A stretch of DNA of 64,000 nucleotides, taken from a virus. Taxonomy: Duplodnaviria > Caudoviricetes. Location: IMG/VR virus record IMGVR_UViG_3300020048_000002; one strand, given 5' to 3'. The notes under the pieces are model-generated. The model worked only from the letters and a program-made list of their open reading frames with translations. It ran no database searches and was not told the DNA's origin. The position numbers and the translations under genes are program-made. The number at the start of each line of letters is the position of its first letter. Position 1 is the first letter of the stretch. This document shows, piece by piece, positions 6,196 to 37,063 of this stretch.

Positions 6196-8156
6196 AGCTT
6201 GACTCCCTGACCGGCTGAGCCGAACTCGACACCGAGAGTCTCAGCTACCTTCACGGGGTCGAGTTCAACATCGAGCCCACCGTGCTGGAGTTGGTACTCG
6301 GCCATCATCGTAAGGCCGTTGTTCATGAGGCTCTCGTAGCTGACCTCCGTGGCCTTACCCGACGCCAACACCTCACGCTGCTGGGCCGCCTTGTTGATGT
6401 ACGGAGGCTCTTCAACAAGTTGCTTGCCTACGACCGAACAGAAGCCTGGCTTGTTCTGGTGGACGCACGAGCCACACTTCGACCCCTGCTTGATGTAAGG
6501 GACGAGGCGCGAACGGTGGAGGCTTGCAGCCTCCTTGCATCCCTTGCCGTAGTCATCGTAAACGGTGGGATCGACGTAGTGGATGCCCTGAAGGCCCTGC
6601 TCCGCAATAACGGGACGGAGTTCGTTGACGGCAGCCGTCAATTCAAAGGTCTGAAACCGAGACTTGAGCGAGGCCAGTAGGTCGGCTCCATAGAGCCCCT
6701 CGTTCAAGAAGCGGCGGGCAGTCTTTACAATCTCACGCTTCTTGGGGTCCTCCCAAGGAAGGGCGTTCTCACCGACTCGGTTCATCGTATGGGCTTGAAC
6801 CAAGGATTGCGCCATCCGGGTTGCGGGAGTCTGTTGTTGCTGGACGACATGAGCCCTAGCGAGCTTGTTCATGCTTGCCAGCATGGTCCGATGCGTCTGA
6901 CCCTCAGCCAGTGCAGACGACACGTCCAACCCAGCGGCACGGTACTCCGAGGCTGCCTTCTGAACGGCTTCTTCTGTGTAGAGGTCCGATGCCTCTTTCA
7001 CGAGGGGCTTGCCGTACATGAGGCAACGGGCCATCTTGTTGTAGATACACCCGGAGCATTTTGAGCCCGCCACAACCCCACGGATTCCAGGGTTGTGGGT
7101 AGCCAAGAAATCGGCCCCGTCGCGACAATCGGAGAAGCTGTCCTGCGTCGAGTAGACGAAACCGTAGAGACCCGCCTCCTTGAGAAGGGGGCGCAAGTGC
7201 TCCGACATCGCCTGGATGTCAGTCGATTGTGCCGCGTGCTTTAGCACGGACACCAACTCTTGCTCCCCTCGCCCCTTCAGCATCTCTCGGCGAACAAGGG
7301 CCACGAGAGATTCACGGGCCGACTTGCCCACGGGCGCAACGTAGTCCGTTCGAACTTGTTCCGCCTGACGCATGAGACGGGCAACGTTGTCGACGGGCTT
7401 CGGGGCTACGACATGCTCAGGCTTGAAGTCGTCTGCCAACATAGCGAGCCGTACCCGCTTCTTGGGCTCAACTCCAGCGACCACTTCAACGACCTTTCCC
7501 TTGGCCCTCTGCGTTTGCTCGACCTTGTCGGCAAGAGCATCGGAGTAAGGGACCTCCAGCTTGATTTCCTTGTGGAATACCGAGCAGGTGGTCTTGCCGG
7601 TCACACCCGACGAAGCGTGAACGCAGTTGCCACACTCAGCCTTAGCGACAACGAACTGTGCGTCGCCAGCATATCGACGAACGAAGTCAACAGGCTTTTT
7701 CGACCCCGTGTGGCAACCGGGGAAATCAGCCGCTTCGATGTACACCTTGCCTAGCAGGCCACGCTCTGCGAGAACGCTGGCAAGAACGCCCTTAGCGGCC
7801 TGAAGGCTCTCACGGTCAAAACGCTTGAGAAGAGCCTCCCGGAAGTGGCCGTGATCCAAGCTCTGCATTAGCGTGAGCCGAGCGACCTTACGGATGTCCT
7901 CGGGCTTGGCCCGAAGATGACCGTGCTCTTGGGACATGTCCCCCATCGTGTGCGGGAGGCTACCCTTGTTCTCGACATAGGACGAAGCGGGCTTGTCCTC
8001 GTGGCTCCAGAGAGCTTCGAGGTCCGGCACCACGTCAAGGTTCTGCTTCGGCAACGTATCTTGTGCGCGATACTCGGCCGGATCGACCTCCAACCAGTCG
8101 AGGTTGGGGACCGAGCCCCCCTTCAGAAACGCGCCTAGATCACCAAGGTCAGCCAT
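6192..8156 (-). CDS. Protein with three repeats of a four-cysteine domain
   Basis: 654 aa with three ExGLxGxxY...C...CxxC...C units. Confidence 0.75.
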   Translation of the reverse strand: MADLGDLGAFLKGGSVPNLDWLEVDPAEYRAQDTLPKQNLDVVPDLEALWSHEDKPASSYVENKGSLPHTMGDMSQEHGHLRAKPEDIRKVARLTLMQSLDHGHFREALLKRFDRESLQAAKGVLASVLAERGLLGKVYIEAADFPGCHTGSKKPVDFVRRYAGDAQFVVAKAECGNCVHASSGVTGKTTCSVFHKEIKLEVPYSDALADKVEQTQRAKGKVVEVVAGVEPKKRVRLAMLADDFKPEHVVAPKPVDNVARLMRQAEQVRTDYVAPVGKSARESLVALVRREMLKGRGEQELVSVLKHAAQSTDIQAMSEHLRPLLKEAGLYGFVYSTQDSFSDCRDGADFLATHNPGIRGVVAGSKCSGCIYNKMARCLMYGKPLVKEASDLYTEEAVQKAASEYRAAGLDVSSALAEGQTHRTMLASMNKLARAHVVQQQQTPATRMAQSLVQAHTMNRVGENALPWEDPKKREIVKTARRFLNEGLYGADLLASLKSRFQTFELTAAVNELRPVIAEQGLQGIHYVDPTVYDDYGKGCKEAASLHRSRLVPYIKQGSKCGSCVHQNKPGFCSVVGKQLVEEPPYINKAAQQREVLASGKATEVSYESLMNNGLTMMAEYQLQHGGLDVELDPVKVAETLGVEFGSAGQGVKL

Positions 8157-8165
8157 GTCGTCCTC

Positions 8166-9671
8166 TCACTTCCTGTATGGACCCTGGATAGGATCTCGCT
8201 GGTGCATCCAATCCGGCCGCATCTGGGTGGTAGTGTAGTCGTACTTCACGTACGGTACGTCGGGTTGTTCATACTTGTATCCCAGGTTTGGTCCCGGCGA
8301 TCGGTACGAGTTGTACCCAGAGTTGCCACCGTCTCCCGGAAGCTCGGAGCCGCCGACAACCACATCAAGATCGTTGCCCTTGGGTCCAGCGTAGTAGTCC
8401 GACCGGGCAACCGGATCGAGTACGTCCAAAGGCATCAAGGCAGAGGACATCACGGGCATACCCATGCCCGACGTGGCCCGCTCCGTAATCGCAGTCGAGT
8501 CGCTCTCGGTGTCCCGTGTCTTACCCCCGGGGTCCCAAGGGAGCCCAGACCGAGGCCCGTACACACCACGCGATCCGGACGAAGGGTTGCTCTCTCCGTA
8601 ACCCCCAGCACCTTGCCCGTGTGCATCGTCTCCGTTGCCACGACCGATACCAAAGTCGAACCCCTCTGTTGCGGTAGGGTCCGTGTTTGAGTCGGGGAGA
8701 TTGGACTTTGCGGCCTTGCCCGAGAAGTTGTTTTCCCACTCGGAGGGATAGATGTAGTCGTTTCCGACCCCCTCGTCACGGCTCCAAGCATCCCCAGTCG
8801 GAAGGCTCTCTTCTCGGTTGTACGAACCGAACGGGCCTTGGGCGTCACCTCGGTCGAGGTGATCAACCCGTGGACCCGGGAGCGAGTTGACGGGCAGGGA
8901 GGAGTTGGCCGTCCGGTTGTAGCTGTAGCCCGCCTGCTTCATTTGGGGGCGGCCCGTGCGAGCGGGGTTAGGCCCTTGGCTGTCAGCGGGTCCTCCACCA
9001 CGAGGGAGCTTCGATCCCTTAGAGGAGTCCTCTTCGTTGCGGAAACGACTGGGCGACCAAGCGGAGGGCTCAGAGCGAGCCGGTTCCTCCGACTCGACTT
9101 CCTCCATGTCCTCCTCAGCTTCGCCTTCGGGGTCCTCCATGTAGTCCGTGGCGTCGCTAAGGAGACGCTTCAGCTCGGAAACGTCCTGCTTCTCAAGATC
9201 CGCTAGCTTCGGCTTCCAGTGTGGGGCGTTGACCTCATCGTAGATCGCATCGCAGATCGTCGAGAGGTGCTCACTCGCCTCAAATAGCTTCGCCCGGATG
9301 TCTTTGACACCCATCACGTAGCCCTGACCTCCAACGAGGCCATCGGGCGAAAAGGCCACTGACTTGAGTCGGCTGAACTGTCGGTGTGCCGTGAGGGTGT
9401 GGCCTAGAGCTACGCTAGTGGCCCACAGCATCTTCACCAACGGCTTCATCGCCTTGGGGTCGAAGTTGTGGCTAACGGGGATTTTGCGGCGTGAAGGGTT
9501 GTTGAACTCCTTCTTGTGAGGAGGGGTGTACTCCCCTCCCTCGGCTGCCGTGCGAACAATCGGGCCAGGGATCAAGTCCACGACATTGCCCACGCGATCG
9601 TAGACGGGGGTGACAGAACGATGCTCCGCAACCTCGCCGAAAGCCTGCCGAACTTTTTCCTTGGCGCTCAT
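8166..9671 (-). CDS. Hypothetical protein with a long low-complexity C-terminus
   Basis: 501 aa; helical N-domain and G/S/P/D-rich tail. Confidence 0.7.
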   Translation of the reverse strand: MSAKEKVRQAFGEVAEHRSVTPVYDRVGNVVDLIPGPIVRTAAEGGEYTPPHKKEFNNPSRRKIPVSHNFDPKAMKPLVKMLWATSVALGHTLTAHRQFSRLKSVAFSPDGLVGGQGYVMGVKDIRAKLFEASEHLSTICDAIYDEVNAPHWKPKLADLEKQDVSELKRLLSDATDYMEDPEGEAEEDMEEVESEEPARSEPSAWSPSRFRNEEDSSKGSKLPRGGGPADSQGPNPARTGRPQMKQAGYSYNRTANSSLPVNSLPGPRVDHLDRGDAQGPFGSYNREESLPTGDAWSRDEGVGNDYIYPSEWENNFSGKAAKSNLPDSNTDPTATEGFDFGIGRGNGDDAHGQGAGGYGESNPSSGSRGVYGPRSGLPWDPGGKTRDTESDSTAITERATSGMGMPVMSSALMPLDVLDPVARSDYYAGPKGNDLDVVVGGSELPGDGGNSGYNSYRSPGPNLGYKYEQPDVPYVKYDYTTTQMRPDWMHQRDPIQGPYRK

Positions 9672-9674
9672 TGC

Positions 9675-9947
9675 TCAACCCTTTAGAGGTTCGCCGTTTT
9701 CGTCGAAGAGGCGCTCAATGTAAAACTGACCATCCGCTTCCTTCTGGAGCGACCAGAGGTCTCGATTGGACTTGTGGATGAGCGTTTCCGTCGAGAGACG
9801 AGTGAAGGATTGCAGTTGCCCGACGGAAGCCACACGCACACGAGCCGCCTTTTGCAGGGGCTTCACCATGGCAGGATTTCGCTCGAAAAGAGCGTCAAGC
9901 CCTGTAGCTCCGGACACTTCCATCTGGCCTAAATCGAATCGTGCCAT
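9675..9947 (-). CDS. Hypothetical protein
   Basis: 90 aa with GAGG SD upstream. Confidence 0.65.
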   Translation of the reverse strand: MARFDLGQMEVSGATGLDALFERNPAMVKPLQKAARVRVASVGQLQSFTRLSTETLIHKSNRDLWSLQKEADGQFYIERLFDENGEPLKG

Positions 9948-9954
9948 GTCAACC

Positions 9955-10854
9955 TCACGAGATCACAAGCGTTACGGTCACATCGACCGAGCTGTTGCTG
10001 CTGTAACCACTGATCCGTAGCTTTTCCGTGTAGGTGCCCGTGGGGCAGCTCTCAGGTGGGGCAACAGCCACAGTAACCAACTGGCCTCCACCACCGGCCA
10101 ACTGGCCCGAGGTTGGATTGTAGCTTGACAGCCAGGGGGAGTTGCCCGTGAGCCGCTGAATCACGTAGTCGAGCAGAGACGCCGGGTCTCCTGTGTTCGT
10201 CAACGTGAACGACTGAGCGGGGATTGGCGGATAGGGACCGCTCAGGGGCTTCGTCACGTAGAACGTGATGGCCCCCGTGCTAACGGAAATCGCAGCCTTC
10301 GGACGCACGACGATGGTCACCGGGATAGTGACCGGGTTGTTCGTGGCGTTCGGGTCTTGGAGCGTGACCGTCTGAATGTAGGGGCTATTGATGGCAAGTA
10401 GGTCGGTCGTGTTCACCACGATTTCGATCTGCCCCGTCTCACTCGAAGCGATGTTCCCCAGTTGCTCGGGGTTCGAGACGACGTAAGGAGCATCCGTGGT
10501 GACCGTTGCGTCGAGCAAGGAACCAAAAACCCCGATGTTCGTGATCGAAATCGCCTGAGCTTCACCAAACCCACGCCCCTCATCCTGCGTGAAAGTGAGC
10601 GTCAGCGGGTTGATCAAGAACGTGGGCGTAAAGCTCGCCAGCAGGTTCCCTATGGAATCTGCCATCGACTGCACCACCGGCCCAGGGATGGGGATACTGT
10701 CCCGGAGAATCCCGAAAGGGCTGATGATGTCCCGGATCGTAAAGACCGGCGACGGTCCAGTCACGTCCATGCGCGTCGTCCACTTCCAGTAGCCGTGGTT
10801 CGTCGGCTGCTGGAACTGGTAGTCCTGGTAGCGCAGGTTTGCGGCGGTGGGCAC
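9955..10854 (-). CDS. Ig-like/BACON-type beta-rich structural protein
   Basis: Two T/V/P-rich Ig-like units (QSFTLTNTG...PWLS.NPTSGQL). Confidence 0.6.
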   Translation of the reverse strand: MPTAANLRYQDYQFQQPTNHGYWKWTTRMDVTGPSPVFTIRDIISPFGILRDSIPIPGPVVQSMADSIGNLLASFTPTFLINPLTLTFTQDEGRGFGEAQAISITNIGVFGSLLDATVTTDAPYVVSNPEQLGNIASSETGQIEIVVNTTDLLAINSPYIQTVTLQDPNATNNPVTIPVTIVVRPKAAISVSTGAITFYVTKPLSGPYPPIPAQSFTLTNTGDPASLLDYVIQRLTGNSPWLSSYNPTSGQLAGGGGQLVTVAVAPPESCPTGTYTEKLRISGYSSNSSVDVTVTLVIS

Positions 10855-10898
10855 GGATCGACCTCACGATCCGTGTCTCGATAAAAGGAACCACGGGC

Positions 10899-11999
10899 CT
10901 AAAGCCATACCTGGCCCCGATAAATCTTGCCAACAAGCGAGACGCCGACGCCGTAAGCCCTCGCAACTTCACCTTGTGTCGCACCCTCAGCAAGGCGAAC
11001 ACGAATCTCCGCTACCTTCTCAGCCGTGAGCTTTCCCGAACGCTCCGACGTGCGTCGCGTCCTGTTTTGTTCAGCCCTGGTGGACCAACGGCAGTTTGCA
11101 ACCCACCCGTGAGCCTCGCAGTCCGAACAACGGCCACACGAGTAATGCCCAGCCCGGTCTTCACGCAAGATCGTGTGTGTGGGGTCCGGTTTTGTCCCAA
11201 CGTCTGCGAGAAACGCCTCGAAGCTGTCTCGCCACCGTTGACACATCGTGATGCCCTGACCCCCGTAATATCTGTACCTTGTGTGGTTGGAGTTGAAGCA
11301 ACGACTCTTGGCTCCGCTCCATGTACGATACTCTGAGGTGCCGTGTTGCCCATGCAAGGCGTTACCGTGGTCTAACCCTCGCGGCATTGGACGACGGTTC
11401 GCGCTCTGCTCGCTCTTGGTTGCCCACCGGACGTTGCCCGGTTCGTACCCAAGTGACCCGTCAATGCGATCCAAGCTGTGTCGAGGCGATGGTTTCGAGC
11501 CAACGTGATTGTAGAAGGCCACGAAATCTTCTGCCCATTCCGGACAGACACCGATGCCCCGACCACCCCAGTTCGCATAGTTGCTGCTCTTGGGGTTGAG
11601 ACAACGGTCCTTCATGGAAATCCACGCACGATACTCAGGCGTGTGGATAAGGCCGTGCTTGAAGTTCGTCGTTCGACCAGGGTCCCAAGGGCGACGGACC
11701 CCCTCAGCCGTCCCGTGAGGGCGGCGATTTCGGGCCTGTTCTTCCCAGGTAGCCCAGCGGCAGTTCCCGGGTTCGTAGCCCTTGTCGTTATCTACCCGTT
11801 CAAGCGAATGCTTGGAGGTAGGACGTGAGCCGACGTGAGCGAAGAACGCCTCAAAGTCGCCCGCCCACTCAGGGGCGACGCTGATCCCACGACCCCCGTA
11901 GTTCGGGTACGCAGCGTGCTTCGGGTTCAAACACCGCTGCTTGATCTGCTGCCAGCACTTGTACTCGGGTAGCTGGGACCGGCCATGCTTGAGGTACAT
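10899..11999 (-). CDS. HNH homing endonuclease-like protein with three tandem units and a C-terminal HTH
   Basis: Three EYxxWxxxKxRC.N....Y..YGG.GI.....W...F..F units, SLDRID..GYEPGN.RWAT motif, terminal HTH. Confidence 0.8.
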   Translation of the reverse strand: MYLKHGRSQLPEYKCWQQIKQRCLNPKHAAYPNYGGRGISVAPEWAGDFEAFFAHVGSRPTSKHSLERVDNDKGYEPGNCRWATWEEQARNRRPHGTAEGVRRPWDPGRTTNFKHGLIHTPEYRAWISMKDRCLNPKSSNYANWGGRGIGVCPEWAEDFVAFYNHVGSKPSPRHSLDRIDGSLGYEPGNVRWATKSEQSANRRPMPRGLDHGNALHGQHGTSEYRTWSGAKSRCFNSNHTRYRYYGGQGITMCQRWRDSFEAFLADVGTKPDPTHTILREDRAGHYSCGRCSDCEAHGWVANCRWSTRAEQNRTRRTSERSGKLTAEKVAEIRVRLAEGATQGEVARAYGVGVSLVGKIYRGQVWL

Positions 12000-12064
12000 A
12001 GCCGGAGGTTATCCATTCTACACCACTGAGTCAACCGCAAAGAAAGAACCGTACCTCAGAATGT

Positions 12065-12703
12065 TTAGAAGCACTTGTCCATGCCTCTCCCTTGCCATTG
12101 CGGGAGCCTGACCTCGCGAAGCATGTTGAAATTCTTACTAGAAATGGTGGAGAACACCTTCTGGTAAGGAGTAAACTTCTCGTTTGCAGCCGCCAAGCGT
12201 TCCAGGGCCTTGACGGCTCGGAAGAAACGATGACGCACCCGACCCTGGGTCAGATTGAGACGGGTCGCAACTTCGCTCTGGCACGTTGTTTCCCACATGC
12301 CGATCAAAATATCGATGTCGATCTCGGCGAAGTCGTCCTTGAGATCCTCTCGAATCTCGTCCGCCGTGATCTGAGGGATGCTCAGGAGGAACTTGATCCG
12401 CTTGATCCCTCGGTCGAGGCGGTAGCTCACGGCTGCCTGCGTCACCTCAAAAATGGCGGCGATGTCGGCTTGCCGCTTCCGCTTGATGAAGTAGAGGTAG
12501 ATGAGGTCGGCTTCCCGCTTCGGGATACGGTCGAGGAGCGGAGCGATCCTGCTTTCGTAGTCGGCCTCTGCAAAGATGCTGTCCGCCTCCTCAAAGCCGT
12601 CCAGTTCGGACTCGAAGCTAGGCGAGATGAGGCGATTTGCAAGTTGCATAGGGTCCATCGGGATCACGTAGCCCGACGCCGCCATCTTACCCTCGCCACT
12701 CAT
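12065..12703 (-). CDS. Sigma70 region-4-like protein with two tandem HTHs
   Basis: LDRIPKREADLIYLYF...QADIAAIFEVTQAAVSYRLDRGIKRIK and QSEVATRLNLTQGRVRHRFFRAVKAL. Confidence 0.7.
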   Translation of the reverse strand: MSGEGKMAASGYVIPMDPMQLANRLISPSFESELDGFEEADSIFAEADYESRIAPLLDRIPKREADLIYLYFIKRKRQADIAAIFEVTQAAVSYRLDRGIKRIKFLLSIPQITADEIREDLKDDFAEIDIDILIGMWETTCQSEVATRLNLTQGRVRHRFFRAVKALERLAAANEKFTPYQKVFSTISSKNFNMLREVRLPQWQGRGMDKCF

Positions 12704-14652
12704 AGGGCTGCCCCAAAAAAGGCCGGGATGACTCGTGTCGGAGCCATCTCGATGTCCGCTAGAAGACCCTCAGCAAGCGCACGATCTGCCGCTGGAGAGG
12801 CAAGCTGTAGATCCAACTCGGTACAAAGGGACATGAGCTGAACGTTCAAGCGGACCTGCTTTTCTGCTCCACGGAGCTTGTCTCGGAGGGACTGGCTCAA
12901 ACCAGCCAGGTTGGACACAAAGATACCATCGACCGTGCCGTACAGTTGTAGGAGCTTGCTGGCTGTTTTGCTCCCACACCCAGGTGCCCCCGGAATGTTG
13001 TCGGAGGTGTCTCCCCCCAAAGCACGGAAGTGGACCATCCTCTCCGGAGGCACACCGTACTCAGCCAGTACAGAATCAGGGGTACAGATCTTTTCTTTAC
13101 CCACTCCCACAGCCGGTACAAGAACTTGTGTGGTCTCCGTGACCAACTGCATGAAGTCTCGGTCGTTCGAGACAATCAGGTTGCGCTGTCCTTCCAGCCG
13201 ACCTCGAACCAGGGAGGCGATCACGTCGTCGGCTTCTTCTCCTTCGGCTTGCACCTGCCAGACCCCAAACGAGTGAAGGGAGTCCTTGAGCCAGTTGACC
13301 TCAAACGTGCTGCGAATCGAGTTCCGGTTGGCCTTGTACTCAGGGAAAACCGCTCGTCTACGGGTCGAGTGGTTGTCCCAGCACACCCAGATCTCGGCTG
13401 ACGGGTGCTTCTTCCTCAGACTCGATAGGCTGTTGAGAAACCCTACGACAGGTCCCGTGGACCGCCCCTTGGAGTCCCTCAGCTCACCTAAACCAGGAGC
13501 CAACGCGCATCGCGCCAACATGTTGAAACCGTCGACGACAAGGTTCTCGACCATACTGCTCCCGGCAAGTGTGCGCTCGAACGAAAGAACCGAGCGTTCA
13601 AGATCCAAAAGTTTCAAGGAGGCGTCGTGCAGGAACTTGAACCGCTCCCATTCTTGGATGAGAGAGTCCCACGGAAGTACCCGCTCGATGCTCCTAAGAG
13701 CCGCCGCTGTTTTTTGGACGAAAGAGTCCCAAGAGGCGATCCGCTCCACAGCCACCTGTGCTGAACGGATGACCTGAAGATCCAAAGGTTGCTCAAAGGC
13801 TCGGATGTAACCTTGTAGGTTGGACCCCCTCTGCAACCACTTGGTCAACTTGTGTGTCACCGACTGATTTTTTCTCATATCGGCGATCTGTTCCTCGTGG
13901 TCGTGAAGGCGTATTCTGGCCTGGTGAAACCTCCCCAGGGTGAGCCAGCCCGTCAACCGTTGGTATGTACGGTAGGTCTGCCCCACATGACCTAATTTGG
14001 AGGGATCCCAGTAAAGAACAGGCCGCACCGTGTCGAACCAGGCGCGATGCTCCCGAGTCTTGAGCACGTACGAGGGTAGAGCTGCCTTGCTGACCAAGTG
14101 AAGGAACGAGCGAGGTAGCATGATGAGCGAGTCTTTCGACCTCAACTCAATCCGCACCTGCACCGAGTCCTGTTCGGGGATGTCCTCGATTACGAGAGCG
14201 GTCAGGTTCTTGTACGCCCCTGAGTTGACGATCACCGTGTCGCCAACGTCGATCCCTTGGTCACTATGCAAGCGCATCTGGCGCTTGAACTTCTCGATGT
14301 CCCGGTCGTGGACCAGAGCGACAGATCGGTTATCGGACGGATGTCGAACTACCCCTTGGACGTAACGGGTGTCGTCTAGGCGGGATAAGGACGAGGCAAG
14401 TTTCGGTAGCACCGGCAACTTGACGAAGGCGTAGCCCTCAACGAGATACGTGACCACTCGATCTTCGCCCACCTGCGTCACCACAGCGGGGATGAACACG
14501 ATCGCCTTCGGGCCGAGGTGGTGGCGAATCGAAGCTGCCACCAAGTCGGGGTCCTCCCCCTCCGCCATAGGACCGAGTTCCAGAATGACCCACTCCGTGG
14601 GCAACTTATCCGGCACCCCAGATTCTTTCTGGCTACCCAACCCGAGTTTCAT
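12700..14652 (-). CDS. NusG (NGN+KOW) fused to a 5'-3' exonuclease of the FEN/PolI-N family
   Basis: NGN: WVIL...VFIP...LVEGYAFVKL. KOW: VGDTVIVNSGAYKNLTALV. Nuclease: LVVDG, PEYKANR, EADDVIA, SNDRDF, GDTSDNIPG..GCGSKTA. Confidence 0.85.
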   Translation of the reverse strand: MKLGLGSQKESGVPDKLPTEWVILELGPMAEGEDPDLVAASIRHHLGPKAIVFIPAVVTQVGEDRVVTYLVEGYAFVKLPVLPKLASSLSRLDDTRYVQGVVRHPSDNRSVALVHDRDIEKFKRQMRLHSDQGIDVGDTVIVNSGAYKNLTALVIEDIPEQDSVQVRIELRSKDSLIMLPRSFLHLVSKAALPSYVLKTREHRAWFDTVRPVLYWDPSKLGHVGQTYRTYQRLTGWLTLGRFHQARIRLHDHEEQIADMRKNQSVTHKLTKWLQRGSNLQGYIRAFEQPLDLQVIRSAQVAVERIASWDSFVQKTAAALRSIERVLPWDSLIQEWERFKFLHDASLKLLDLERSVLSFERTLAGSSMVENLVVDGFNMLARCALAPGLGELRDSKGRSTGPVVGFLNSLSSLRKKHPSAEIWVCWDNHSTRRRAVFPEYKANRNSIRSTFEVNWLKDSLHSFGVWQVQAEGEEADDVIASLVRGRLEGQRNLIVSNDRDFMQLVTETTQVLVPAVGVGKEKICTPDSVLAEYGVPPERMVHFRALGGDTSDNIPGAPGCGSKTASKLLQLYGTVDGIFVSNLAGLSQSLRDKLRGAEKQVRLNVQLMSLCTELDLQLASPAADRALAEGLLADIEMAPTRVIPAFFGAAL

Positions 14653-14658
14653 GTGGCT

Positions 14659-17391
14659 CTACCCTCGACCGAGTAGCCACGTAAGCTCGAACTCACGTCG
14701 CCACTGATCCGGGGAGAGTACACGGTTGTCCTCGTCATCTGCTTCTGTACTATTGAAGCTGAAATTTTGAGCCGTGTGCCCACGGCCCCTTGGCATCTGA
14801 CGAGGTACGGATTGGTGGTCATAGTCCGTCAGAGCGGCAATATCCCCGGACTCGCGGTTGCCGATCCCGTCAACTCGTACCACACCTTTGCCAGTTGGGG
14901 AAGTTTTCGGGGTCACCGTCGCCTGGACAGGCGTAGGGGCTGAGACTGAACTGACGGGGGTAGGGGTGGCGGGGGTGGGAGTTTGCACGGAGGCAACCAC
15001 AGGCGAGGGAGCCACCTGGATTGAAATGACGGGTGCCGCAACAGTGGCCTGCGCGGGTACGCCCGACGATAGTTGAAGGATCGTACAAAGCAGGGACACT
15101 TTGGTGGCGTACCTTTGCTGGAGAAAGTGCTCCGCCAGCCGGACCGTGGAGTCCCCATACGTCTCGTACACCCTCTGCCCAAGGGTCTTGTCTACGTACG
15201 CAAAGTCGGCAAACATGCCATATCGAAGGCGAAACGAGTTCATGGCAGCCTCAGCCAATCCAGCCGAGACCTCCTCGGGGCTGACTCGCTCGCACAGACC
15301 CTCGACAAGTTCAATGGCCCTCTTCGGTGATCCGAGGGCCAGGAGTACCTCGTAGTAGGTCGAGACGACCGACAGGTGCAGGTACTCTCGGACATTCTCG
15401 ATGCTAACCCGGCCCATTTGGGCGATCATCTCTAGCCGGTTCACCACGTCACGAACGTGGCCACCCGAATAGTCGATGACCGTGAGAACAGCGTCATCCT
15501 CGTGGTCGATCCCGTGATGATCGAGGATCTTGTTCATCCGAACCAGAATATCCTCACGGGTGATCTTGCGGATCGCGTACTCCTCACACCGGGACCGGAT
15601 CGGGCCTCGAATCTTCTCGGGCTCAGTCGTGCAGAAGATCCCCACCATCTTCTTCTCCTCCAAGGGCTTGAGGAGCACGTCCTGAGCATCCCGGCTCATG
15701 CGGTGGGCTTCGTCGAAGACGTAGACCCGCTTCGGTGCATTGAAGAGGGCGAAAGGTAGGTCTTCGACGATAGCCCGGATGTTGTCGATGGTGCCGCCAG
15801 AGGCCGCATCCTGCTCGACATAAGCCCCCGGCTGCCCGTTGAGCATGTCACGGCAGTTGTCGCACTCGTTGCAGGGCTCGGGATCCGCCTTGTCGAGATT
15901 CTGGCAGAGCATTGCGCGAGCGTGAATACGCGCAAGCGTCGTGTTGTGGTTCATGAACCCGTTGGCCGAAAACGATTCGCCCACGGGTACATTGAGATCG
16001 TAGACCTCGGCTTCACCACGCTCGACGGATACCACCGGGTCGTAGAAGTAGCGGGTAGCGGATAGGTGCTTGAAGTGCTGCGTAGCTCGGCCCTCGTAAG
16101 CACCTTTAGCGATGCGCTCCACCTGCTGATCCGTACACGAGATACGCCCACGACGAGCACGGAAGAAGTGGCTCGTTTCACGGTTACGTTCGGTAGGGCC
16201 AATTTCCGTGTAGAATGCGGACAGGTGGGGTGCTTGATGCGGCACCACCTCATACTTATTCGAGAGGGACCGCTTTCCGGTGGCGTGCTTCCGCTTTAGG
16301 AAGTCCCGCATCACCCCTTGTTTACGGGCCGATACGAAACCAATCTTGTCGGCAAAGGTTTGCAAGGACGTGCCCATCACCTTGATGCGCCAATACGTCC
16401 CGTACTTTGCGTGCCGCTTCGGGAAGCGACGAGACAAGATACCGAGGTTCGCTAGTAGCACTTGGACTTGTCTCGCAAGCTCGGGAGACTTGGTGAGGGC
16501 CTCAAATCCGTTCGCGGTCCCATCGCACTCGAAGTAGGCGCGAAGGAAGGCCCGCACAACGGGTTCGGGCGAAGCCATAACGGCCCAAGGAACAACCTTC
16601 TCTCCCGCCTTGCCGTAACCGAGTCCGATGTAGGAGAGAAACGACCGAAACTGCTTTCGAGAACAACGAAGCGAACTTAGCCCAGGTCGTCGCTTATCGG
16701 GAGTGTCGGTGCCCGACCCCCCAAGCTCGTTGAGCAAGTGCAAGATTTCTTGCTTCACGTCGGTTTCGGCACAAGAGATGGCTACGTAGCGGTCGCTCGT
16801 ACAAGAACCGTCTCCGACGAGGTAGCCCAAGAGGGCACCCCAACGCTCGTCGAGAGTAGATGGGGGAGTGAAGTCAACCGAGGATTGATCCGAAAGCGCG
16901 GGCTCATACTTGAAGCCCGAGAGATCGGGTCCGCTCCCCCACATCCCGTTTCGGACGATACAGGCGTAGTCATCGACCGTCATGTCCCCAAGCTGTCGCC
17001 ACCCGATAGCCCCATCGGACTGCATAACCCGGATGCGATGGTTGGGCGTCCCCTCTAGCTCAAAGCCTAGATAGGTGCGGATACGGACGGTTTCACGCCT
17101 CCCTCCACGATAGGAGTAGGCCGAAACGGAGGTACCCGTTTCTTGCACTACTCCGACCTCTAGGGGGTCGGTTTGATTTGGCCCCATAAGGGACCGAATC
17201 GGTACAACGCCGCGTGACGTGGGGACAAGGGTATCCCCCGTCACGCACTTCCCCTGCCCATGGCCGCCCGCGAAGATGTACGACACGTCAAGGGCCGTCC
17301 CCTTCGCAAGGCGAGCCTTGAGAAGTTGGACAGTGCCCTGCTGCCCTAGAACGTCCCCGAACTTGAGGGGCCTATGAAGTGTATCCCACAC
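14659..17391 (-). CDS. dnaX: DNA polymerase III gamma/tau clamp-loader ATPase with intein
   Basis: HRPLKFGDVLGQ, GGHGQGK|intein|TTLAR, C...CNECDNC zinc site, DEAHRM, IRSRC. Confidence 0.93.
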   Translation of the reverse strand: MWDTLHRPLKFGDVLGQQGTVQLLKARLAKGTALDVSYIFAGGHGQGKCVTGDTLVPTSRGVVPIRSLMGPNQTDPLEVGVVQETGTSVSAYSYRGGRRETVRIRTYLGFELEGTPNHRIRVMQSDGAIGWRQLGDMTVDDYACIVRNGMWGSGPDLSGFKYEPALSDQSSVDFTPPSTLDERWGALLGYLVGDGSCTSDRYVAISCAETDVKQEILHLLNELGGSGTDTPDKRRPGLSSLRCSRKQFRSFLSYIGLGYGKAGEKVVPWAVMASPEPVVRAFLRAYFECDGTANGFEALTKSPELARQVQVLLANLGILSRRFPKRHAKYGTYWRIKVMGTSLQTFADKIGFVSARKQGVMRDFLKRKHATGKRSLSNKYEVVPHQAPHLSAFYTEIGPTERNRETSHFFRARRGRISCTDQQVERIAKGAYEGRATQHFKHLSATRYFYDPVVSVERGEAEVYDLNVPVGESFSANGFMNHNTTLARIHARAMLCQNLDKADPEPCNECDNCRDMLNGQPGAYVEQDAASGGTIDNIRAIVEDLPFALFNAPKRVYVFDEAHRMSRDAQDVLLKPLEEKKMVGIFCTTEPEKIRGPIRSRCEEYAIRKITREDILVRMNKILDHHGIDHEDDAVLTVIDYSGGHVRDVVNRLEMIAQMGRVSIENVREYLHLSVVSTYYEVLLALGSPKRAIELVEGLCERVSPEEVSAGLAEAAMNSFRLRYGMFADFAYVDKTLGQRVYETYGDSTVRLAEHFLQQRYATKVSLLCTILQLSSGVPAQATVAAPVISIQVAPSPVVASVQTPTPATPTPVSSVSAPTPVQATVTPKTSPTGKGVVRVDGIGNRESGDIAALTDYDHQSVPRQMPRGRGHTAQNFSFNSTEADDEDNRVLSPDQWRREFELTWLLGRG
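15943..17247 (-). mobile_element. LAGLIDADG intein in the dnaX P-loop (435 aa)
   Basis: Starts CVTGDT, has TPNHRI, LGYLVGDG and LRAYFECDG, ends FMNHN before Thr. Confidence 0.93.
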
Positions 17392-17411
17392 GTTGAGCCC
17401 CTGGTAGCGGG

Positions 17412-17915
17412 TTAGACCGAAGCCGTAACGCCTTCTGCCGCAGACGCACTCACTACGTCCTCAATCAGACTATCGATGTCTACAGTCTTAGCCACCGAGG
17501 CAAACCCTAGCAGCTCGTCGTTCCAAGCGCCGTGACGACGCAGGATGGCGGTAAACTCAGCCACATCGGGCTCACGGGTCGTCCACTTCATATCCCCCGA
17601 CTGATCGTCCTCCTCCCCCGTGCAACGTTCGAGGAGGTGATCCACGAGGGCTTGCCTTTGAGCCTCGTTCATCTCATTCCACTGGTCGTTCGCAACCTCA
17701 ATCAAGAAGTCGCACTCCAGTAGATACTCCAACGCCCCGCCAATCTTGCGGGCCTTGCCTGGAACAGGCCGACCGTTCTTTGAACTGGCCTTGTCCACGC
17801 TGATGTACCGGATCCGGGCGGTCGCAAGCTCCGGGTGGTACATCGGGATGAGGTGTTGGGCTACGGTTTCTACCGTCTCGGCCTCGCTGTACATCTTAGG
17901 CATCGAAAACTCCAT
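17412..17915 (-). CDS. Putative phage metallopeptidase-like protein
   Basis: QRQALVDHLLERC (degenerate HExxH) and PDVAEFTAILRRHGAW. Confidence 0.55.
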   Translation of the reverse strand: MEFSMPKMYSEAETVETVAQHLIPMYHPELATARIRYISVDKASSKNGRPVPGKARKIGGALEYLLECDFLIEVANDQWNEMNEAQRQALVDHLLERCTGEEDDQSGDMKWTTREPDVAEFTAILRRHGAWNDELLGFASVAKTVDIDSLIEDVVSASAAEGVTASV

Positions 17916-18621
17916 CGGCTACAGACCGAAGCACGGTCTGAACGAACGACCCCAGTTGATCGTCTCCCCATGCTTCCCACAACTCCCCTGGGTCCTTGAT
18001 TGGACGGGTTGTCCCGGTAGCATGGACTTTCGGATAATACACCGAGCGAACGTCAAAATCACGACCGAATTCTCGTGAGAACTGACGCATCGCCGACTGG
18101 CCTGCCGCATCTGCATCGTACCCCACCCACACACGACGAACAAGTCGACGTAAAGATGGGATCAAGGACTCCGGCACACGAGCCGTCAATGTTGCGGCGA
18201 TGTACGGCACATGGCGTTGTAAGGGGAAAAGATCGAAGGCCCCCTCGACGAGCCACACTTCCTCTTTCGCCCAAATGTGTGGGGCTGCCTGACCTAACCC
18301 AAAAAGGACAGGCTCTTCCTTGTAGGGGATGTAGTCGAGGTAACCCTTCCGAGCACGATCCACATGCCGAAACTGGAAGCCTTGGACAACCCCAAGAACG
18401 GTGGTCAAAGGTAGAACGAAAACGTCGTCCAAGCGTTGACCCTGGTGTGCCCACCGGAGGAAGTCATCGGCTCCGGGTAAGTTTGGGAGTTTGCGATCAA
18501 GGTACCCGATCTTGAACAACTCTATCTGCTCGTCGGAAACCCCACGAGAATGCAACTCATCCCGAGCGGCGTCGGTAAGATTAGACTGAGCAAAGCCGAC
18601 TAGATCATCCACCCAAGTCAC
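17896..18621 (-). CDS. DnaG-like primase core (Toprim) without a zinc-binding domain
   Basis: RGVS.EQIELFKIGY, LFGL, VWLVEGAFD and YDADAAG motifs. Confidence 0.8.
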   Translation of the reverse strand: MTWVDDLVGFAQSNLTDAARDELHSRGVSDEQIELFKIGYLDRKLPNLPGADDFLRWAHQGQRLDDVFVLPLTTVLGVVQGFQFRHVDRARKGYLDYIPYKEEPVLFGLGQAAPHIWAKEEVWLVEGAFDLFPLQRHVPYIAATLTARVPESLIPSLRRLVRRVWVGYDADAAGQSAMRQFSREFGRDFDVRSVYYPKVHATGTTRPIKDPGELWEAWGDDQLGSFVQTVLRSVADGVFDA

Positions 18622-19220
18622 GGGACCACCGTAACGAGGGAACGATCGGCGTTGTGTACCATGACCCCCACGTAATCCCCCGTGCGAACATACGTGCCAA
18701 CGAAAGTCGGGATGGTGGCCACGAGAGCCGTGCCCTCTAACATGTCCGCCATCATGATGTGGACCCCTTCAACCTCAGCCACCTCCCCCTTCGATCCCAT
18801 TCTCTCCCAAGCCTGTTCGAGATTCATCTCGGGAAGCATGTCCCCGAGAAGAGCAGGTGAAATCACAATGGATCGAGGTTCGAGCCCATGGGACCTCATC
18901 CGGTATACCGCATCCCGCACAGTTTTACACCGGTTCGACCAAGATTCGCTCTCAGAAAGGGTGACTAAGGTGCGGTGCAGAGCAACGAGCAGGTGGCTCT
19001 CGTTGTCTAGAGGACAGTGTGAAAACCCGAACCGAAGAACCCCCTGACCTGAAGGGCGCGTAAGCAAAAAAGCCCCTCGCATATTCGTCACTAAAAAAGG
19101 GCCATCGGAGGTCTGAGCTAGCCTCTCGTTCATCGCAGGTACAGAGAAGCCGCCTGTTCTGGCGGCTCTTTGTTGTACCCTCTCGGTGATGAAGAGTCGT
19201 TCAAGGGGCTTGAACGTCAT
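18618..19220 (-). CDS. Hypothetical protein
   Basis: 200-aa ORF overlapping its neighbours. Confidence 0.6.
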   Translation of the reverse strand: MTFKPLERLFITERVQQRAARTGGFSVPAMNERLAQTSDGPFLVTNMRGAFLLTRPSGQGVLRFGFSHCPLDNESHLLVALHRTLVTLSESESWSNRCKTVRDAVYRMRSHGLEPRSIVISPALLGDMLPEMNLEQAWERMGSKGEVAEVEGVHIMMADMLEGTALVATIPTFVGTYVRTGDYVGVMVHNADRSLVTVVP

Positions 19221-19773: not shown

Positions 19774-20453
19774 CTGTGTCCTCGCATACGCTTGAGCCCC
19801 AAGCTCCACGTACCGTCCGCTTCCGTCTCTTCCGAGCCGTGGTAGGCGGTCTGGGCGTGATCTAGGTAGGACTGCTTATGTGTGATCATGAGCAAGTCGA
19901 TCCCCGTCGTTTCTGCGAGTTTCCGTAGAAACCTGCCCGCTTGCTCCGTGTACTCGTCCGACACGGCGGCGAGCGTTTCGTCCAACAACAGCAGGGGCCA
20001 CTTCTTTAGGCGTAGCAACGCTAGTAGGCGTAACACAAGCGATGCGACACTGGACGGGCCGCCCCCGAAAGACTCCAAGGGGTGTCCCCGAACGGCGGCT
20101 TCGTCTTGTCCCTGGCGAAGGAGAAAATCGATAGCGATCTTGTTGTACTTCGTTCCGACCTCGGCCTCGAAGGTGAGATCTTGGTCGTGGAAGATCGTGC
20201 CCAAACCTTCTGTAACAATCCCCTCGATTCCGCGAACCTGATCGAGGACGAGCTTGTCCATAAGCATACGAAGAAGCTCACCTACCTTGGTGAGCTTCTC
20301 AATATCCTCCGACAACGTACCGATCTCAGACTCTTTCTCGACTACGTCGGCGACCAAAGCGTCCCGAGCAGCTTGCAGGCGCATGGCCCGCTGAGACAAG
20401 TCCCGAGATCTGGCAATCAGTCCTTGGACGGCATGAACCGGGTCACTCGACAC
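19770..20453 (-). CDS. Rad50/SbcC C-terminal half
   Basis: Coiled coil, then signature-like SFGGG, Walker B LLLDE and H-loop ITH; no Walker A. Confidence 0.8.
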   Translation of the reverse strand: MSSDPVHAVQGLIARSRDLSQRAMRLQAARDALVADVVEKESEIGTLSEDIEKLTKVGELLRMLMDKLVLDQVRGIEGIVTEGLGTIFHDQDLTFEAEVGTKYNKIAIDFLLRQGQDEAAVRGHPLESFGGGPSSVASLVLRLLALLRLKKWPLLLLDETLAAVSDEYTEQAGRFLRKLAETTGIDLLMITHKQSYLDHAQTAYHGSEETEADGTWSLGLKRMRGHR

Positions 20454-37049: not shown

Positions 37050-37063
37050 TTGCCTCAATCCTC

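What the first reader, a model, noticed from the sequence alone, without database searches (positions are those of the whole stretch)
12065..14652. NusG fused to a 5'-3' nuclease and coupled to a double sigma-4 protein: a candidate RNA polymerase-tethered 'torpedo' factor
Seen: one uninterrupted 650-aa ORF contains an NGN+KOW module, a roughly 180-aa Trp-periodic helical spacer and an intact FEN/PolI-type 5'-3' nuclease with its acidic catalytic motifs. Its stop overlaps the start of a protein with two sigma region-4-like HTHs. A possible internal start (GGAG then ATG 13554) could also yield the free nuclease. Established: NusG/Spt5 binds elongating RNA polymerase, and eukaryotic torpedo termination uses a 5'-3' exonuclease. 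Inference: the fusion carries a nuclease on transcribing polymerase, to terminate or degrade host transcripts or to clear R-loops at replication conflicts. I do not know of a described fusion like this.
Basis: partly seen in the sequence, partly recalled or inferred. Interest (0 to 1): 0.85.

Follow-up and report, generated by a model that had tools for sequence, protein, structure and literature searches.

The report
NusG-like protein fused to flap nuclease
A huge freshwater phage, like well over a hundred relatives, joins an RNA-polymerase-riding factor (NusG-like) to its only DNA-replication flap nuclease, always beside a gene with two sigma-region-4 DNA-binding domains, which suggests an undescribed physical link between phage transcription and replication.

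Summary
Window 12700-14652 (-) is one uninterrupted 650-aa ORF with three parts:
- An NGN+KOW module. Its profile hits NusG in the PDB at E 2.4e-9, and nearly all top Foldseek hits for the AF2 model are NusG/RfaH/Spt5.
- A 174-aa arm of ~36-residue helical repeats.
- An intact Pol I-type 5' nuclease.

Its stop overlaps (ATGA) the start of a 212-aa protein that has two sigma-region-4-type HTH domains and no region 2.

The fusion is not an assembly error. An independent assembly spans it with no indels, and 19 of 22 substitutions are synonymous. More than 120 protein clusters at 38-71% identity share the architecture.

New findings:
- The ancestral, obligate unit is the NusG-like gene plus the sigma4x2 gene (65/65 IMG/VR loci). 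It sits between the dnaX replication operon and the terminase/portal genes.
- Only one clade carries the nuclease. There it is the genome's sole FEN, beside a PolA-type polymerase.
- Split and stand-alone forms also exist.

A classical RNA "torpedo" is possible but not favoured. My best reading is an RNAP-bound phage elongation/late-gene module that carries the replication flap and RNA:DNA-hybrid nuclease. I found no paper describing it. The scan noted the same family twice on other DNA.

The parts
12700..14652 (-). 650-aa ORF (P0001): NusG-like domain, repeat arm and 5' nuclease fused in one protein
   Evidence: Full-length homologues in >120 clusters. Independent contig without indels.
14263..14601 (-). 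NGN domain (residues ~18-130), with the invariant L-x-x-G-Y-A-F strand (L70, G73, Y74, A75, F76)
   Evidence: Profile versus PDB NusG. RfaH NGN aligns at Z 10.2. Invariant columns.
14083..14256 (-). KOW domain (residues ~133-190)
   Evidence: Pfam KOW in 53/59 members. NusG/Spt5 KOW structures align at Z 8-9.4, rmsd 1-2.6.
13555..14076 (-). Helical arm (residues ~193-366): five long helices built of ~36-residue repeats, with Trp at 236/272/308
   Evidence: AF2 secondary structure. Autocorrelation peak at offset 36, and linker lengths clustering near 125/140/170-175 aa.
13552..13563 (-). GGGAG, 4 nt, then ATG (M367): a possible internal start at the arm/nuclease boundary
   Evidence: Sequence. 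Same position as the start of the separate FEN gene in split relatives L005/L006/L012. Met not conserved, 19/120.
13054..13542 (-). Pol I-type 5'-3' exonuclease/FEN catalytic (PIN-like) domain, residues 371-533
   Evidence: PF02739 E 4.5e-31. Acidic residues kept in alignments to 6vde/1taq. NCBIfam DNA polymerase I N-terminal part, E 1.9e-55.
12799..13053 (-). H3TH (SAM-fold) duplex-binding domain of the nuclease, residues 534-618
   Evidence: PF01367 E 2.9e-20. The G-D-x-S-D-N-I-P-G and G-x-K-T-A motifs align with Pol I.
12715..12732 (-). Conserved C-terminal hydrophobic motif (V-I-P-A-F-F here; family consensus [IL]-L-x-A-F-F) ahead of a variable tail
   Evidence: Family tails. The motif is within the last 40 aa in 101/120 members. 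10/120 also end in a QL[DT][LI]x or QQATLF beta-clamp-like peptide, against 0.14 expected.
12065..12703 (-). 212-aa partner protein (P0002), start overlapping the fusion's stop (ATGA). It has an acidic disordered N-terminus, two sigma-region-4-type HTH domains, a C-terminal helix, and no sigma region 2.
   Evidence: Follows the NusG-like gene in 65/65 related loci.
12380..12541 (-). First sigma region 4-like HTH of P0002 (residues 55-108)
   Evidence: Sigma70_r4 E 1.1e-12. SigF region 4 8jzt_A E 3.2e-7 with the family profile. TM 0.8-0.86 to sigma region 4 structures.
12185..12364 (-). Second HTH domain of P0002 (residues 114-173)
   Evidence: Second Sigma70_r4 stretch. AF2 helices 114-173 at pLDDT >90. 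Invariant T-C-Q...Q-G-x-V-R-H-R-F block.
14659..17391 (-). Upstream gene of the same operon: DnaX-type clamp-loader subunit interrupted by a LAGLIDADG intein. It ends 6 nt before the fusion's ATG.
   Evidence: Synteny Toprim, metallopeptidase, DnaX, NusG-like, sigma4x2 in all relatives.

Best explanation
SHOWN:
- This is one real protein of a ~311-kb phage.
- Its N-terminus is a phage-specific paralogue of NusG (NGN + KOW).
- Its middle is an arm of ~36-residue helical repeats.
- Its C-terminus is an intact Pol I-type flap/5'-3' nuclease, which in related complete genomes is the only such nuclease.
- The next, translationally coupled gene encodes a protein with two sigma-region-4 HTH domains and no region 2.
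- The NusG-like gene and the sigma4x2 gene are an obligate pair across a broad group of huge phages. They always lie at the end of the primase/clamp-loader operon, and in this window co-directionally upstream of the terminase and portal genes.
- These phages have no recognisable RNAP beta subunit, and this window encodes a sigma-region-2 (ECF-like) protein, so they most likely use host RNA polymerase.

INFERRED:
- The pair rides on host RNAP core as a phage-specific elongation/antitermination (late-gene) device. The NGN would sit on the beta' clamp helices and a sigma-4 domain on the beta flap.
- In this clade the arm holds the replication nuclease on that complex.
- The nuclease would then remove 5' flaps and the RNA strand of RNA:DNA hybrids (R-loops, transcript-primed DNA ends) wherever transcription and the PolA-type replisome share the template.
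- On this reading it couples transcription to replication. It does not chew free nascent RNA.
For: Fold and family of the N-terminus. The invariant G-Y-A-F strand aligns with the F-P-G-Y-V-F strand of NusG. NGN domains contact the beta' clamp helices and beta gate loop in all domains of life (10.1101/324400).

Nuclease: it is intact and closest to bacterial Pol I 5' nuclease.

Conservation:
- The fusion occurs in >120 clusters and in 44/65 IMG/VR loci.
- Purifying selection: 19/22 substitutions synonymous.
- The sigma4x2 gene follows in 65/65 loci and is more conserved than the fusion, 55-82% versus 41-68% identity.
- Nineteen loci of a sister clade keep the same synteny with a stand-alone NusG-like gene plus sigma4x2 and no FEN.

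Gene content of related genomes (several complete):
- Exactly one PF02739 match, the fusion, in 5/5 fused-clade genomes.
- PolA-type polymerase present; no PolB, no Pol III alpha, no RNase H1.
- No RNAP beta in 5 genomes.
- This window encodes a weak sigma-region-2 (ECF-like) match.

Position: terminase and portal lie co-directionally downstream.

Modularity: natural split forms keep the arm with the NusG half and start the FEN gene at the M367 position, so the two halves are separable modules that stay together.
Against: - No experiment or co-fold shows that the NGN binds RNAP, or that sigma4x2 binds the flap. Both are homology inferences at ~17-20% identity to NusG.
- As the only FEN, the protein may be needed at the lagging strand rather than on RNAP.
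- A subset of relatives ends in a canonical beta-clamp-binding-like peptide, which points to the replisome.
- The sister clade does without any FEN, so the nuclease is not needed for the NusG-like/sigma4x2 function.
- Terminator-like and promoter-like sites downstream are no more frequent than in shuffled sequence.
- FENs need a free 5' end, which moves away from an elongating polymerase.
- Absence of a Pfam RNAP-beta match does not exclude a very divergent phage RNAP.
Confidence: 0.4

Rival explanations
1. Torpedo. The NusG part holds the nuclease at the RNA exit of RNAP. The nuclease degrades nascent or cleaved RNA 5'->3' and dislodges the polymerase, terminating or destroying host or phage transcripts. 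This would be a covalent analogue of Spt5-Xrn2/Rat1 or Spt5-FttA.
For: - The NusG/Spt5 fold is confirmed.
- Pol I 5' nucleases and XRN nucleases belong to the same FEN-like group of the PIN-like superfamily (PMC5499597).
- Spt5 is reported to coordinate Xrn2 exoribonucleolysis on Pol II (PMC11695829).
- FttA works with Spt4/5 on archaeal RNAP (PMC11616081).
- The long arm could reach the RNA exit channel.
Against: - The domain matches PF02739+PF01367 with an intact duplex-binding H3TH. It does not match XRN_N or beta-CASP.
- To my knowledge, characterised members cut flaps and RNA:DNA or DNA duplex ends, not free ssRNA processively.
- It is the genome's only FEN beside a PolA lacking one, so replication explains its presence.
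- The sister clade keeps NusG-like+sigma4x2 with no nuclease.
- A tethered exonuclease cannot chase a 5' end that leaves the polymerase unless the RNA is first cleaved, and no endonuclease partner is evident.
Confidence: 0.1
2. Replisome-only. The protein is simply the phage's Okazaki-fragment and primer-removal nuclease, held at the fork by the sliding clamp. The NusG-like part is a passenger, fused because the genes were adjacent and translationally coupled, or else it binds something other than RNAP.
For: - It is the sole FEN, with no RNase H1, in genomes with PolA, a beta-like clamp, a clamp loader and an NAD ligase.
- The gene sits directly after dnaX.
- Clamp-binding-like C-terminal peptides occur in 10/120 relatives, against 0.14 expected.
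- In L072 the FEN is a separate gene ending in S-F-S-L-F-D.
- Phages with PolA commonly carry a separate FEN (T5 D15; PMC3632103).
Against: - A neutral fusion would not be expected to persist from 71% down to 38% identity with a dedicated repeat arm of regulated length and with the NGN-KOW as conserved as the nuclease.
- When the gene splits, the arm stays with the NusG half and the genes stay overlapped.
- This window's own protein lacks the QLxLF-type tail.
Confidence: 0.2
3. Replication-coupled late transcription, as in T4. The nuclease (with the clamp) recognises nicks and flaps on replicating DNA and, through the NusG-like domain and the sigma4x2 protein, recruits or activates host RNAP on replicated templates. 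This would parallel T4 gp45 clamp + gp33 (beta-flap binder) + gp55 (clamp-helix binder).
For: - The module sits at the replication/late-gene boundary.
- The predicted binding sites of NGN (beta' clamp helices) and sigma-4 (beta flap) are the same two RNAP sites used by T4 gp55 and gp33. This is established knowledge; the gp33-flap structure is cited in PMC7824862.
- Clamp-like peptides occur on some tails.
- Stand-alone NusG-like proteins carry acidic/hydrophobic C-terminal peptides in place of arm+FEN.
- From memory, not retrievable here: phage T5 needs its D15 5' exonuclease for late gene expression (Chinnadurai & McCorquodale, PNAS 1973).
Against: - NGN domains are elongation factors and are not known to open promoters.
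- No clamp-binding test was possible.
- The motif in this window's protein is not a canonical clamp peptide.
- The support rests entirely on analogy.
Confidence: 0.15

Closest known systems
NusG and its specialised paralogues (RfaH, UpxY, LoaP, ActX)
   Same: Same two-domain NGN+KOW fold, with weak NCBIfam hits to UpxY and NusG. Like the specialised paralogues, it is encoded next to long co-directional gene sets. Like UpxY with UpxZ, it comes with a dedicated partner gene.
   Different: Only ~17-20% identical to NusG/RfaH in the structural alignments. It is phage-encoded, carries a 125-175-aa repeat arm and a nuclease, and its partner is a double sigma-region-4 protein. No ops-like signal has been identified.
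5' nuclease domain of bacterial DNA polymerase I, and the free FENs (ExoIX/Xni, mycobacterial FenA, T5 D15)
   Same: PF02739+PF01367. All aligned metal-binding acidic residues and the H3TH motifs are kept. Best PDB hits are mycobacterial and Taq Pol I. As in T5 and T7, the phage's PolA-type polymerase lacks this domain and the nuclease is encoded apart.
   Different: Attached to a transcription-factor module, not to a polymerase, and not free.
Spt5-Xrn2/Rat1 (eukaryotes) and Spt4/5-FttA (archaea) termination complexes
   Same: A NusG/Spt5-family factor working with a 5'->3' nuclease on RNA polymerase. XRN and Pol I 5' nucleases share the FEN-like fold group (PMC5499597; PMC11695829 and PMC11616081).
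   Different: Those are non-covalent complexes with RNA-specific exonucleases (XRN_N, beta-CASP). Here the link is covalent and the nuclease is a duplex-dependent Pol I-type FEN. RNA torpedo activity is untested.
Phage T4 late-transcription machinery (gp45 clamp, gp33, gp55)
   Same: Small phage proteins that occupy the beta flap and beta' clamp-helix sites of host RNAP and tie late transcription to replication. In this window the genes lie beside clamp-loader genes.
   Different: No sequence or fold relationship. A NusG-like domain takes the place of a sigma-2-like one. The coupling is hypothetical.

Membership tests
NusG/Spt5 family | NGN alpha/beta domain | tested here: met
   AF2 residues 18-130 at pLDDT >85. 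RfaH NGN 8pen_P aligns at Z 10.2, rmsd 3.1, 97 aa. Foldseek NusG hits reach E 8e-10. 46/59 members hit PF02357.
NusG/Spt5 family | KOW beta-barrel following the NGN | tested here: met
   53/59 members hit PF00467. NusG/Spt5 KOW structures align at Z 8-9.4.
NusG/Spt5 family | Binds RNAP beta' clamp helices and bridges the cleft | not testable with these tools
   Only indirect: the invariant G-Y-A-F strand aligns with the F-P-G-Y-V-F strand of NusG. No complex prediction is available.
Pol I-type 5'-3' exonuclease / FEN (PF02739+PF01367) | PIN-like domain with the conserved acidic metal ligands | tested here: met
   D374, D425, the E-x-D-D block, the D-x-D block and G-D-x-S-D-N align with Taq and mycobacterial Pol I. 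These columns are >=90% conserved in the family.
Pol I-type 5'-3' exonuclease / FEN (PF02739+PF01367) | C-terminal H3TH duplex-binding domain | tested here: met
   PF01367 E 2.9e-20, residues 534-618.
Pol I-type 5'-3' exonuclease / FEN (PF02739+PF01367) | Flap endonuclease / 5' exonuclease activity | not testable with these tools
   Needs enzyme assays.
Sigma-70 family (for the partner P0002) | Region 4 HTH | tested here: met
   PF04545 E 1.1e-12 with two stretches. SigF region 4 at E 3.2e-7. TM 0.8-0.86 to region 4 structures.
Sigma-70 family (for the partner P0002) | Region 2 (core binding, -10 recognition and melting) | tested here: not met
   No Sigma70_r2 match in Pfam or NCBIfam. All sigma alignments cover only the C-terminal region-4 part of the models. 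The N-terminal 50 residues are acidic and disordered. P0002 is therefore not a sigma factor.
Torpedo termination nucleases (XRN/Rat1, RNase J, FttA/aCPSF1) | XRN_N or beta-CASP RNA exonuclease domain | tested here: not met
   Pfam and NCBIfam give only Pol I-type 5' nuclease families. The fold group is shared with XRN (PMC5499597).
Torpedo termination nucleases (XRN/Rat1, RNase J, FttA/aCPSF1) | Processive 5'->3' degradation of nascent RNA that releases RNAP | not testable with these tools
   Needs biochemistry.
Operon-specific NusG paralogues (RfaH/UpxY/LoaP type) | Encoded at or near the long operon it controls, with a specific recruitment signal | tested here: inconclusive
   Terminase and portal lie co-directionally downstream. 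No recruitment element was found, and terminator-like sites are not enriched.
Beta-clamp-binding proteins | Terminal QL[SD]LF-type peptide | tested here: inconclusive
   Present in 10/120 relatives against 0.14 expected, and L072's FEN ends S-F-S-L-F-D. This window's protein ends ...V-I-P-A-F-F-G-A-A-L, without that peptide.

The most novel reading that the evidence does not exclude
The protein is a covalent RNA-polymerase-nuclease coupling factor. Together with the sigma4x2 partner it would dock a flap/5' nuclease (and possibly the phage sliding clamp) onto host RNAP. It would act either as a bacterial-virus counterpart of Spt5-Xrn2/FttA termination or as a T4-like switch that licenses late transcription only on replicating, nicked DNA. 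Either outcome would be a new mechanism of transcription-replication coupling, and the first NusG-family protein with a catalytic effector domain.
Probability: 0.25. Interest if true: 0.9.

Novelty: new variant of a known kind. Interest (0 to 1): 0.68.

Why it matters
NusG/Spt5 is described as the only transcription regulator conserved across all life (10.1101/324400, abstract), and I know of no member with an enzymatic domain. A conserved fusion to the phage's sole replication nuclease, with an obligate double sigma-4 partner, gives a concrete and clonable handle on two questions. One is how huge phages, which use host RNAP and a bacterial-type replisome, coordinate transcription with replication. 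The other is whether nuclease-assisted control of RNAP, known from eukaryotes and archaea, also exists in the bacterial world. The stand-alone, split and fused forms offer natural controls for experiments.

Tried and rejected
- **Assembly error:** rejected. An independent contig spans the fusion without indels, and hundreds of homologues share it.
- **Conserved internal start at M367:** rejected as a general feature. Met is present in 19/120 relatives, though the position equals the FEN start in split lineages.
- **Triple fusion P0041/L001 with sigma4x2:** real in that contig. It differs from its sister by reading frame only and may be an indel, so I treat it as weak evidence.
- **GenBank phages:** no full-length or NGN-KOW match. 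The partner matches only one uncultured 485-kb phage, LR745208.1.
- **Whole genome of the window:** not held, so gene-content tests were done on related IMG/VR genomes.
- **Expression:** no RNA holder listed among sequencing runs.
- **ESM Atlas search of the arm:** no usable hit. I do not claim the arm's fold is new, because it was not folded alone.
- **Rfam on 8000-19000:** nothing.
- **Sigma-70 promoter and terminator scans:** no more sites than in shuffles.
- **Literature:** no paper combining NusG with a flap/5' nuclease in phages. NusG is absent from the main text of the jumbo-phage comparative paper, the huge-phage paper and the PIN-superfamily classification.
- **T5 D15 / late-gene paper:** recalled from memory. 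It could not be retrieved and is marked as memory only.
- **RfaH Y54/F56 equivalence to Y74/F76:** also from memory; not confirmed in the text I could read.
Full report
**1. What is there**

On the minus strand, 12700-14652 is one open frame of 650 codons (P0001).

- Pfam finds the two halves of a Pol I-type 5'-3' exonuclease/FEN at residues 371-533 and 534-618 (E 4.5e-31 and 2.9e-20). It gives only a weak KOW hit at 136-166. PHROGs adds a 'transcription antiterminator' family over 69-175.
- The next ORF, 12065-12703 (P0002, 212 aa), starts inside the stop of the first (…CT-ATGA-GT…). It matches sigma-70 region 4 twice.
- The gene upstream (14659-17391) is a DnaX-type clamp-loader subunit carrying a LAGLIDADG intein. 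Before that come a phage metallopeptidase and a Toprim primase-like gene.

**2. Is the N-terminus really NusG-like?**

Yes.

- I aligned residues 1-200 with 58 homologues (A1). The profile hits Thermotoga NusG at E 2.4e-9, and other NusG, RfaH and Spt5 chains below that. It covers the second half of the NGN and the KOW.
- Scanned singly, 46 of 59 members touch Pfam NusG-NGN and 53 touch KOW.
- An AlphaFold2 model of residues 1-370, built with 58 sequences, has mean pLDDT 87.
- Almost all of its top 50 Foldseek matches in the PDB are NusG, RfaH or Spt5 (best E 8e-10).
- An aligner independent of Foldseek places the RfaH NGN on residues 18-127 (Z 10.2, rmsd 3.1 Å, 97 residues). It places NusG/Spt5 KOW domains on 133-190.
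- The strand L70-x-x-G73-Y74-A75-F76 is invariant, including in distant stand-alone relatives. It aligns with the F-P-G-Y-V-F strand of NusG.
- NGN domains contact the beta' clamp helices and the beta gate loop in all domains of life (10.1101/324400). Whether this one does is an inference.

**3. The spacer**

- Residues ~193-366 are five long helices.
- Over the family, sequence autocorrelation peaks at an offset of 36 residues (-0.49, against a background of -0.93 ± 0.12; the best value in shuffles was -0.88). Offset 72 ranks third. Trp236, 272 and 308 are 36 apart.
- Arm lengths in relatives cluster near 125, 140 and 170-175 residues. The arm is therefore a repeat array of variable copy number.
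- Its sequence is poorly conserved compared with both flanking modules.

**4. The nuclease**

- Best solved relatives are the 5' nuclease domains of mycobacterial and Taq DNA polymerase I (E 3e-35 and 3e-26).
- Every acidic residue aligned with their metal ligands is present, as are the Y-K-A-x-R arch motif and the H3TH motifs.
- NCBIfam likewise matches only the first ~250 positions of the DNA polymerase I models.
- So this is a canonical, duplex-dependent FEN. It is not an XRN or beta-CASP RNase.

**5. Is the fusion real?**

- A contig from a different study (freshwater metagenome) covers 12017-14607 in one piece with 24 substitutions and no indel.
- Of 22 substitutions in the two genes, 19 are synonymous. 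Two of the three replacements lie in the arm.
- A search of 5.8 billion proteins returns more than 120 clusters with the same full-length architecture at 38-71% identity. All are metagenomic, many from contigs of 200-450 kb. JGI's pipeline labels some '5'-3' exonuclease/transcription antitermination factor NusG'.

**6. What the relatives add**

The gene order Toprim, metallopeptidase, DnaX, NusG-FEN, sigma4x2 recurs in distant relatives.

A scan of IMG/VR with the NGN-KOW profile gave 65 loci:

| Form | Loci | Notes |
|---|---|---|
| Fused | 44 | |
| Split | 1 (L012) | same split as L005/L006 |
| Stand-alone NusG-like gene (176-216 aa), no nuclease nearby | 19 | same synteny |
| NusG-like gene, small ORF, separate FEN gene (L072) | 1 | |

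- In all 65 loci the sigma4x2 gene follows. It is better conserved than the fusion (55-82% versus 41-68% identity to this window).
- In the split form, found in four contigs from two sources, the arm stays with the NusG half (320 aa). The nuclease gene overlaps its stop and begins at the position of M367 in this window.
- An exhaustive profile search finds 176 representative clusters at E ≤ 1e-30. The best 150 comprise 64 stand-alone forms, 47 fusions and 38 NGN-KOW proteins with an extension but no nuclease.
- The ancestral unit is therefore NusG-like + sigma4x2. The arm and nuclease are an addition in one large clade.

**7. Genome context in related genomes, several complete**

- Five fused-clade genomes (three complete with terminal repeats) each have exactly one PF02739 match, the fusion. 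Five stand-alone-clade records (only one at least 90% complete) have none.
- All five genomes checked (four fused-clade, one stand-alone-clade) have a family-A DNA polymerase. None has family B or Pol III alpha. None of the ten has RNase H1.
- No RNAP beta subunit is detectable in five genomes.
- The window encodes a weak sigma-region-2 (ECF-like) match, bacterial-type delta and delta' clamp-loader subunits, an NAD ligase, RecD2, RecA and SbcCD-like proteins.
- It also encodes a probable divergent beta clamp at 20417-21667. This gives a weak Pol III beta hit (E 0.037). Its orthologue in a complete relative (44% identity) gives a DNA_pol3_beta_3 hit.
- Downstream and co-directional lie the large terminase and portal genes.

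**8. The partner protein**

- AF2 (pLDDT 83.6) shows a disordered acidic N-terminus, a sigma region-4 HTH (55-108), a second three-helix HTH (114-173) and a C-terminal helix.
- Only region-4 domains match in the PDB, by sequence (SigF region 4, E 3.2e-7) and by fold (TM 0.8-0.86 over ~60 residues).
- There is no region 2, so it is not a sigma factor.

**9. Mechanism**

The shown facts are the architecture, the intact catalytic set, the obligate pairing, the position between the replication and packaging modules, and the status as sole FEN.

My best inference (about 0.4) has two parts.

- NusG-like + sigma4x2 form a phage-specific elongation/late-gene module on host RNAP. The NGN would sit on the clamp helices and a sigma-4 domain on the flap tip, the two sites that sigma itself uses.
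- In this clade the repeat arm holds the replication flap/RNA:DNA-hybrid nuclease on that complex. This would link transcription with PolA-based replication through R-loop removal or the processing of transcript-primed ends.

The rivals are:

- **Replisome-only nuclease with a passenger NusG domain (0.2).** It is supported by beta-clamp-like terminal peptides (QLDLF, QLTIx, QQATLF) in 10 of 120 relatives, against 0.14 expected.
- **T4-like replication-coupled activation of late transcription (0.15).**
It gains some plausibility from two points. XRN and Pol I 5' nucleases share a fold group (PMC5499597). Spt5 is also known to partner 5' nucleases in eukaryotes and archaea (PMC11695829 and PMC11616081). 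It is weakened by the FEN's duplex-binding anatomy and its likely replication role.

**10. Novelty**

I found no paper describing the fusion or the NusG-like/sigma4x2 pair. Databases hold many copies, some carrying an automatic double name. The same family was flagged twice by first readers of this scan on other DNA (e1-5325863, e1-5379151), without follow-up. I class it as a new variant of a known kind: a NusG paralogue with a catalytic effector and a dedicated partner.

Noticed in passing
window 14659-17391 (-): The DnaX-type clamp-loader gene is interrupted by an intein with a LAGLIDADG endonuclease (910 aa, against ~460-480 aa in relatives without it). Some relatives (L007, L025, L034) carry it too.
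   Followed up: partly
window 10899-11999 (-): This 366-aa ORF is made of three ~115-aa repeats (…G-G-R-G-I…W…F…H-S-L-D-R…G-Y-E-P-G-N-x-R-W-A-T…E-Q…N-R-R) plus a C-terminal HTH. It has no family match. It is present between sigma4x2 and the next gene in only a minority of related loci (full length in L013, L020, L026, L027, L050), so it is probably a mobile insertion.
   Followed up: partly
window 20417-21667 (-): This 416-aa ORF has no Pfam hit and is probably a very divergent beta sliding clamp. It gives a weak hit to T. maritima Pol III beta (E 0.037). Its 44%-identical orthologue in a complete relative gives DNA_pol3_beta_3 at E 1e-4.
   Followed up: partly
window 33555-37226 (-): This 1223-aa ORF has an ATP-cone and a LAGLIDADG domain. 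It is probably a ribonucleotide reductase carrying an intein, which would be the second intein in the window.
   Followed up: no
L053-L071 (IMG/VR), NusG-like ORFs: Stand-alone NusG-like proteins of the sister clade end in acidic/hydrophobic peptides after the KOW (…S-L-D-E-L-L-E… or …L-D-x-A-x-G-x-E-F-I-P-E). These look like short docking motifs occupying the place of the arm and nuclease.
   Followed up: no
L072:2023-2313 (+): In the one lineage with separate NusG-like and FEN genes, a 96-aa Cys/His-rich ORF lies between them. The FEN there ends in S-F-S-L-F-D, resembling a beta-clamp-binding peptide.
   Followed up: no
window 12065-12703 (-) and A3: The partner protein has a conserved N-terminal peptide (G-Y-V-I-P-V-D-P-x-E-L-A-N-R-F) separated from the HTH domains by a variable acidic, low-confidence stretch. 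This is again typical of a docking motif.
   Followed up: no
related complete genomes G007, G008, G010: Their family-A DNA polymerase genes are single ORFs of 930-1044 aa with no 5' nuclease domain. In G001 the polymerase match is spread over a 1763-aa ORF, probably because of inteins.
   Followed up: partly
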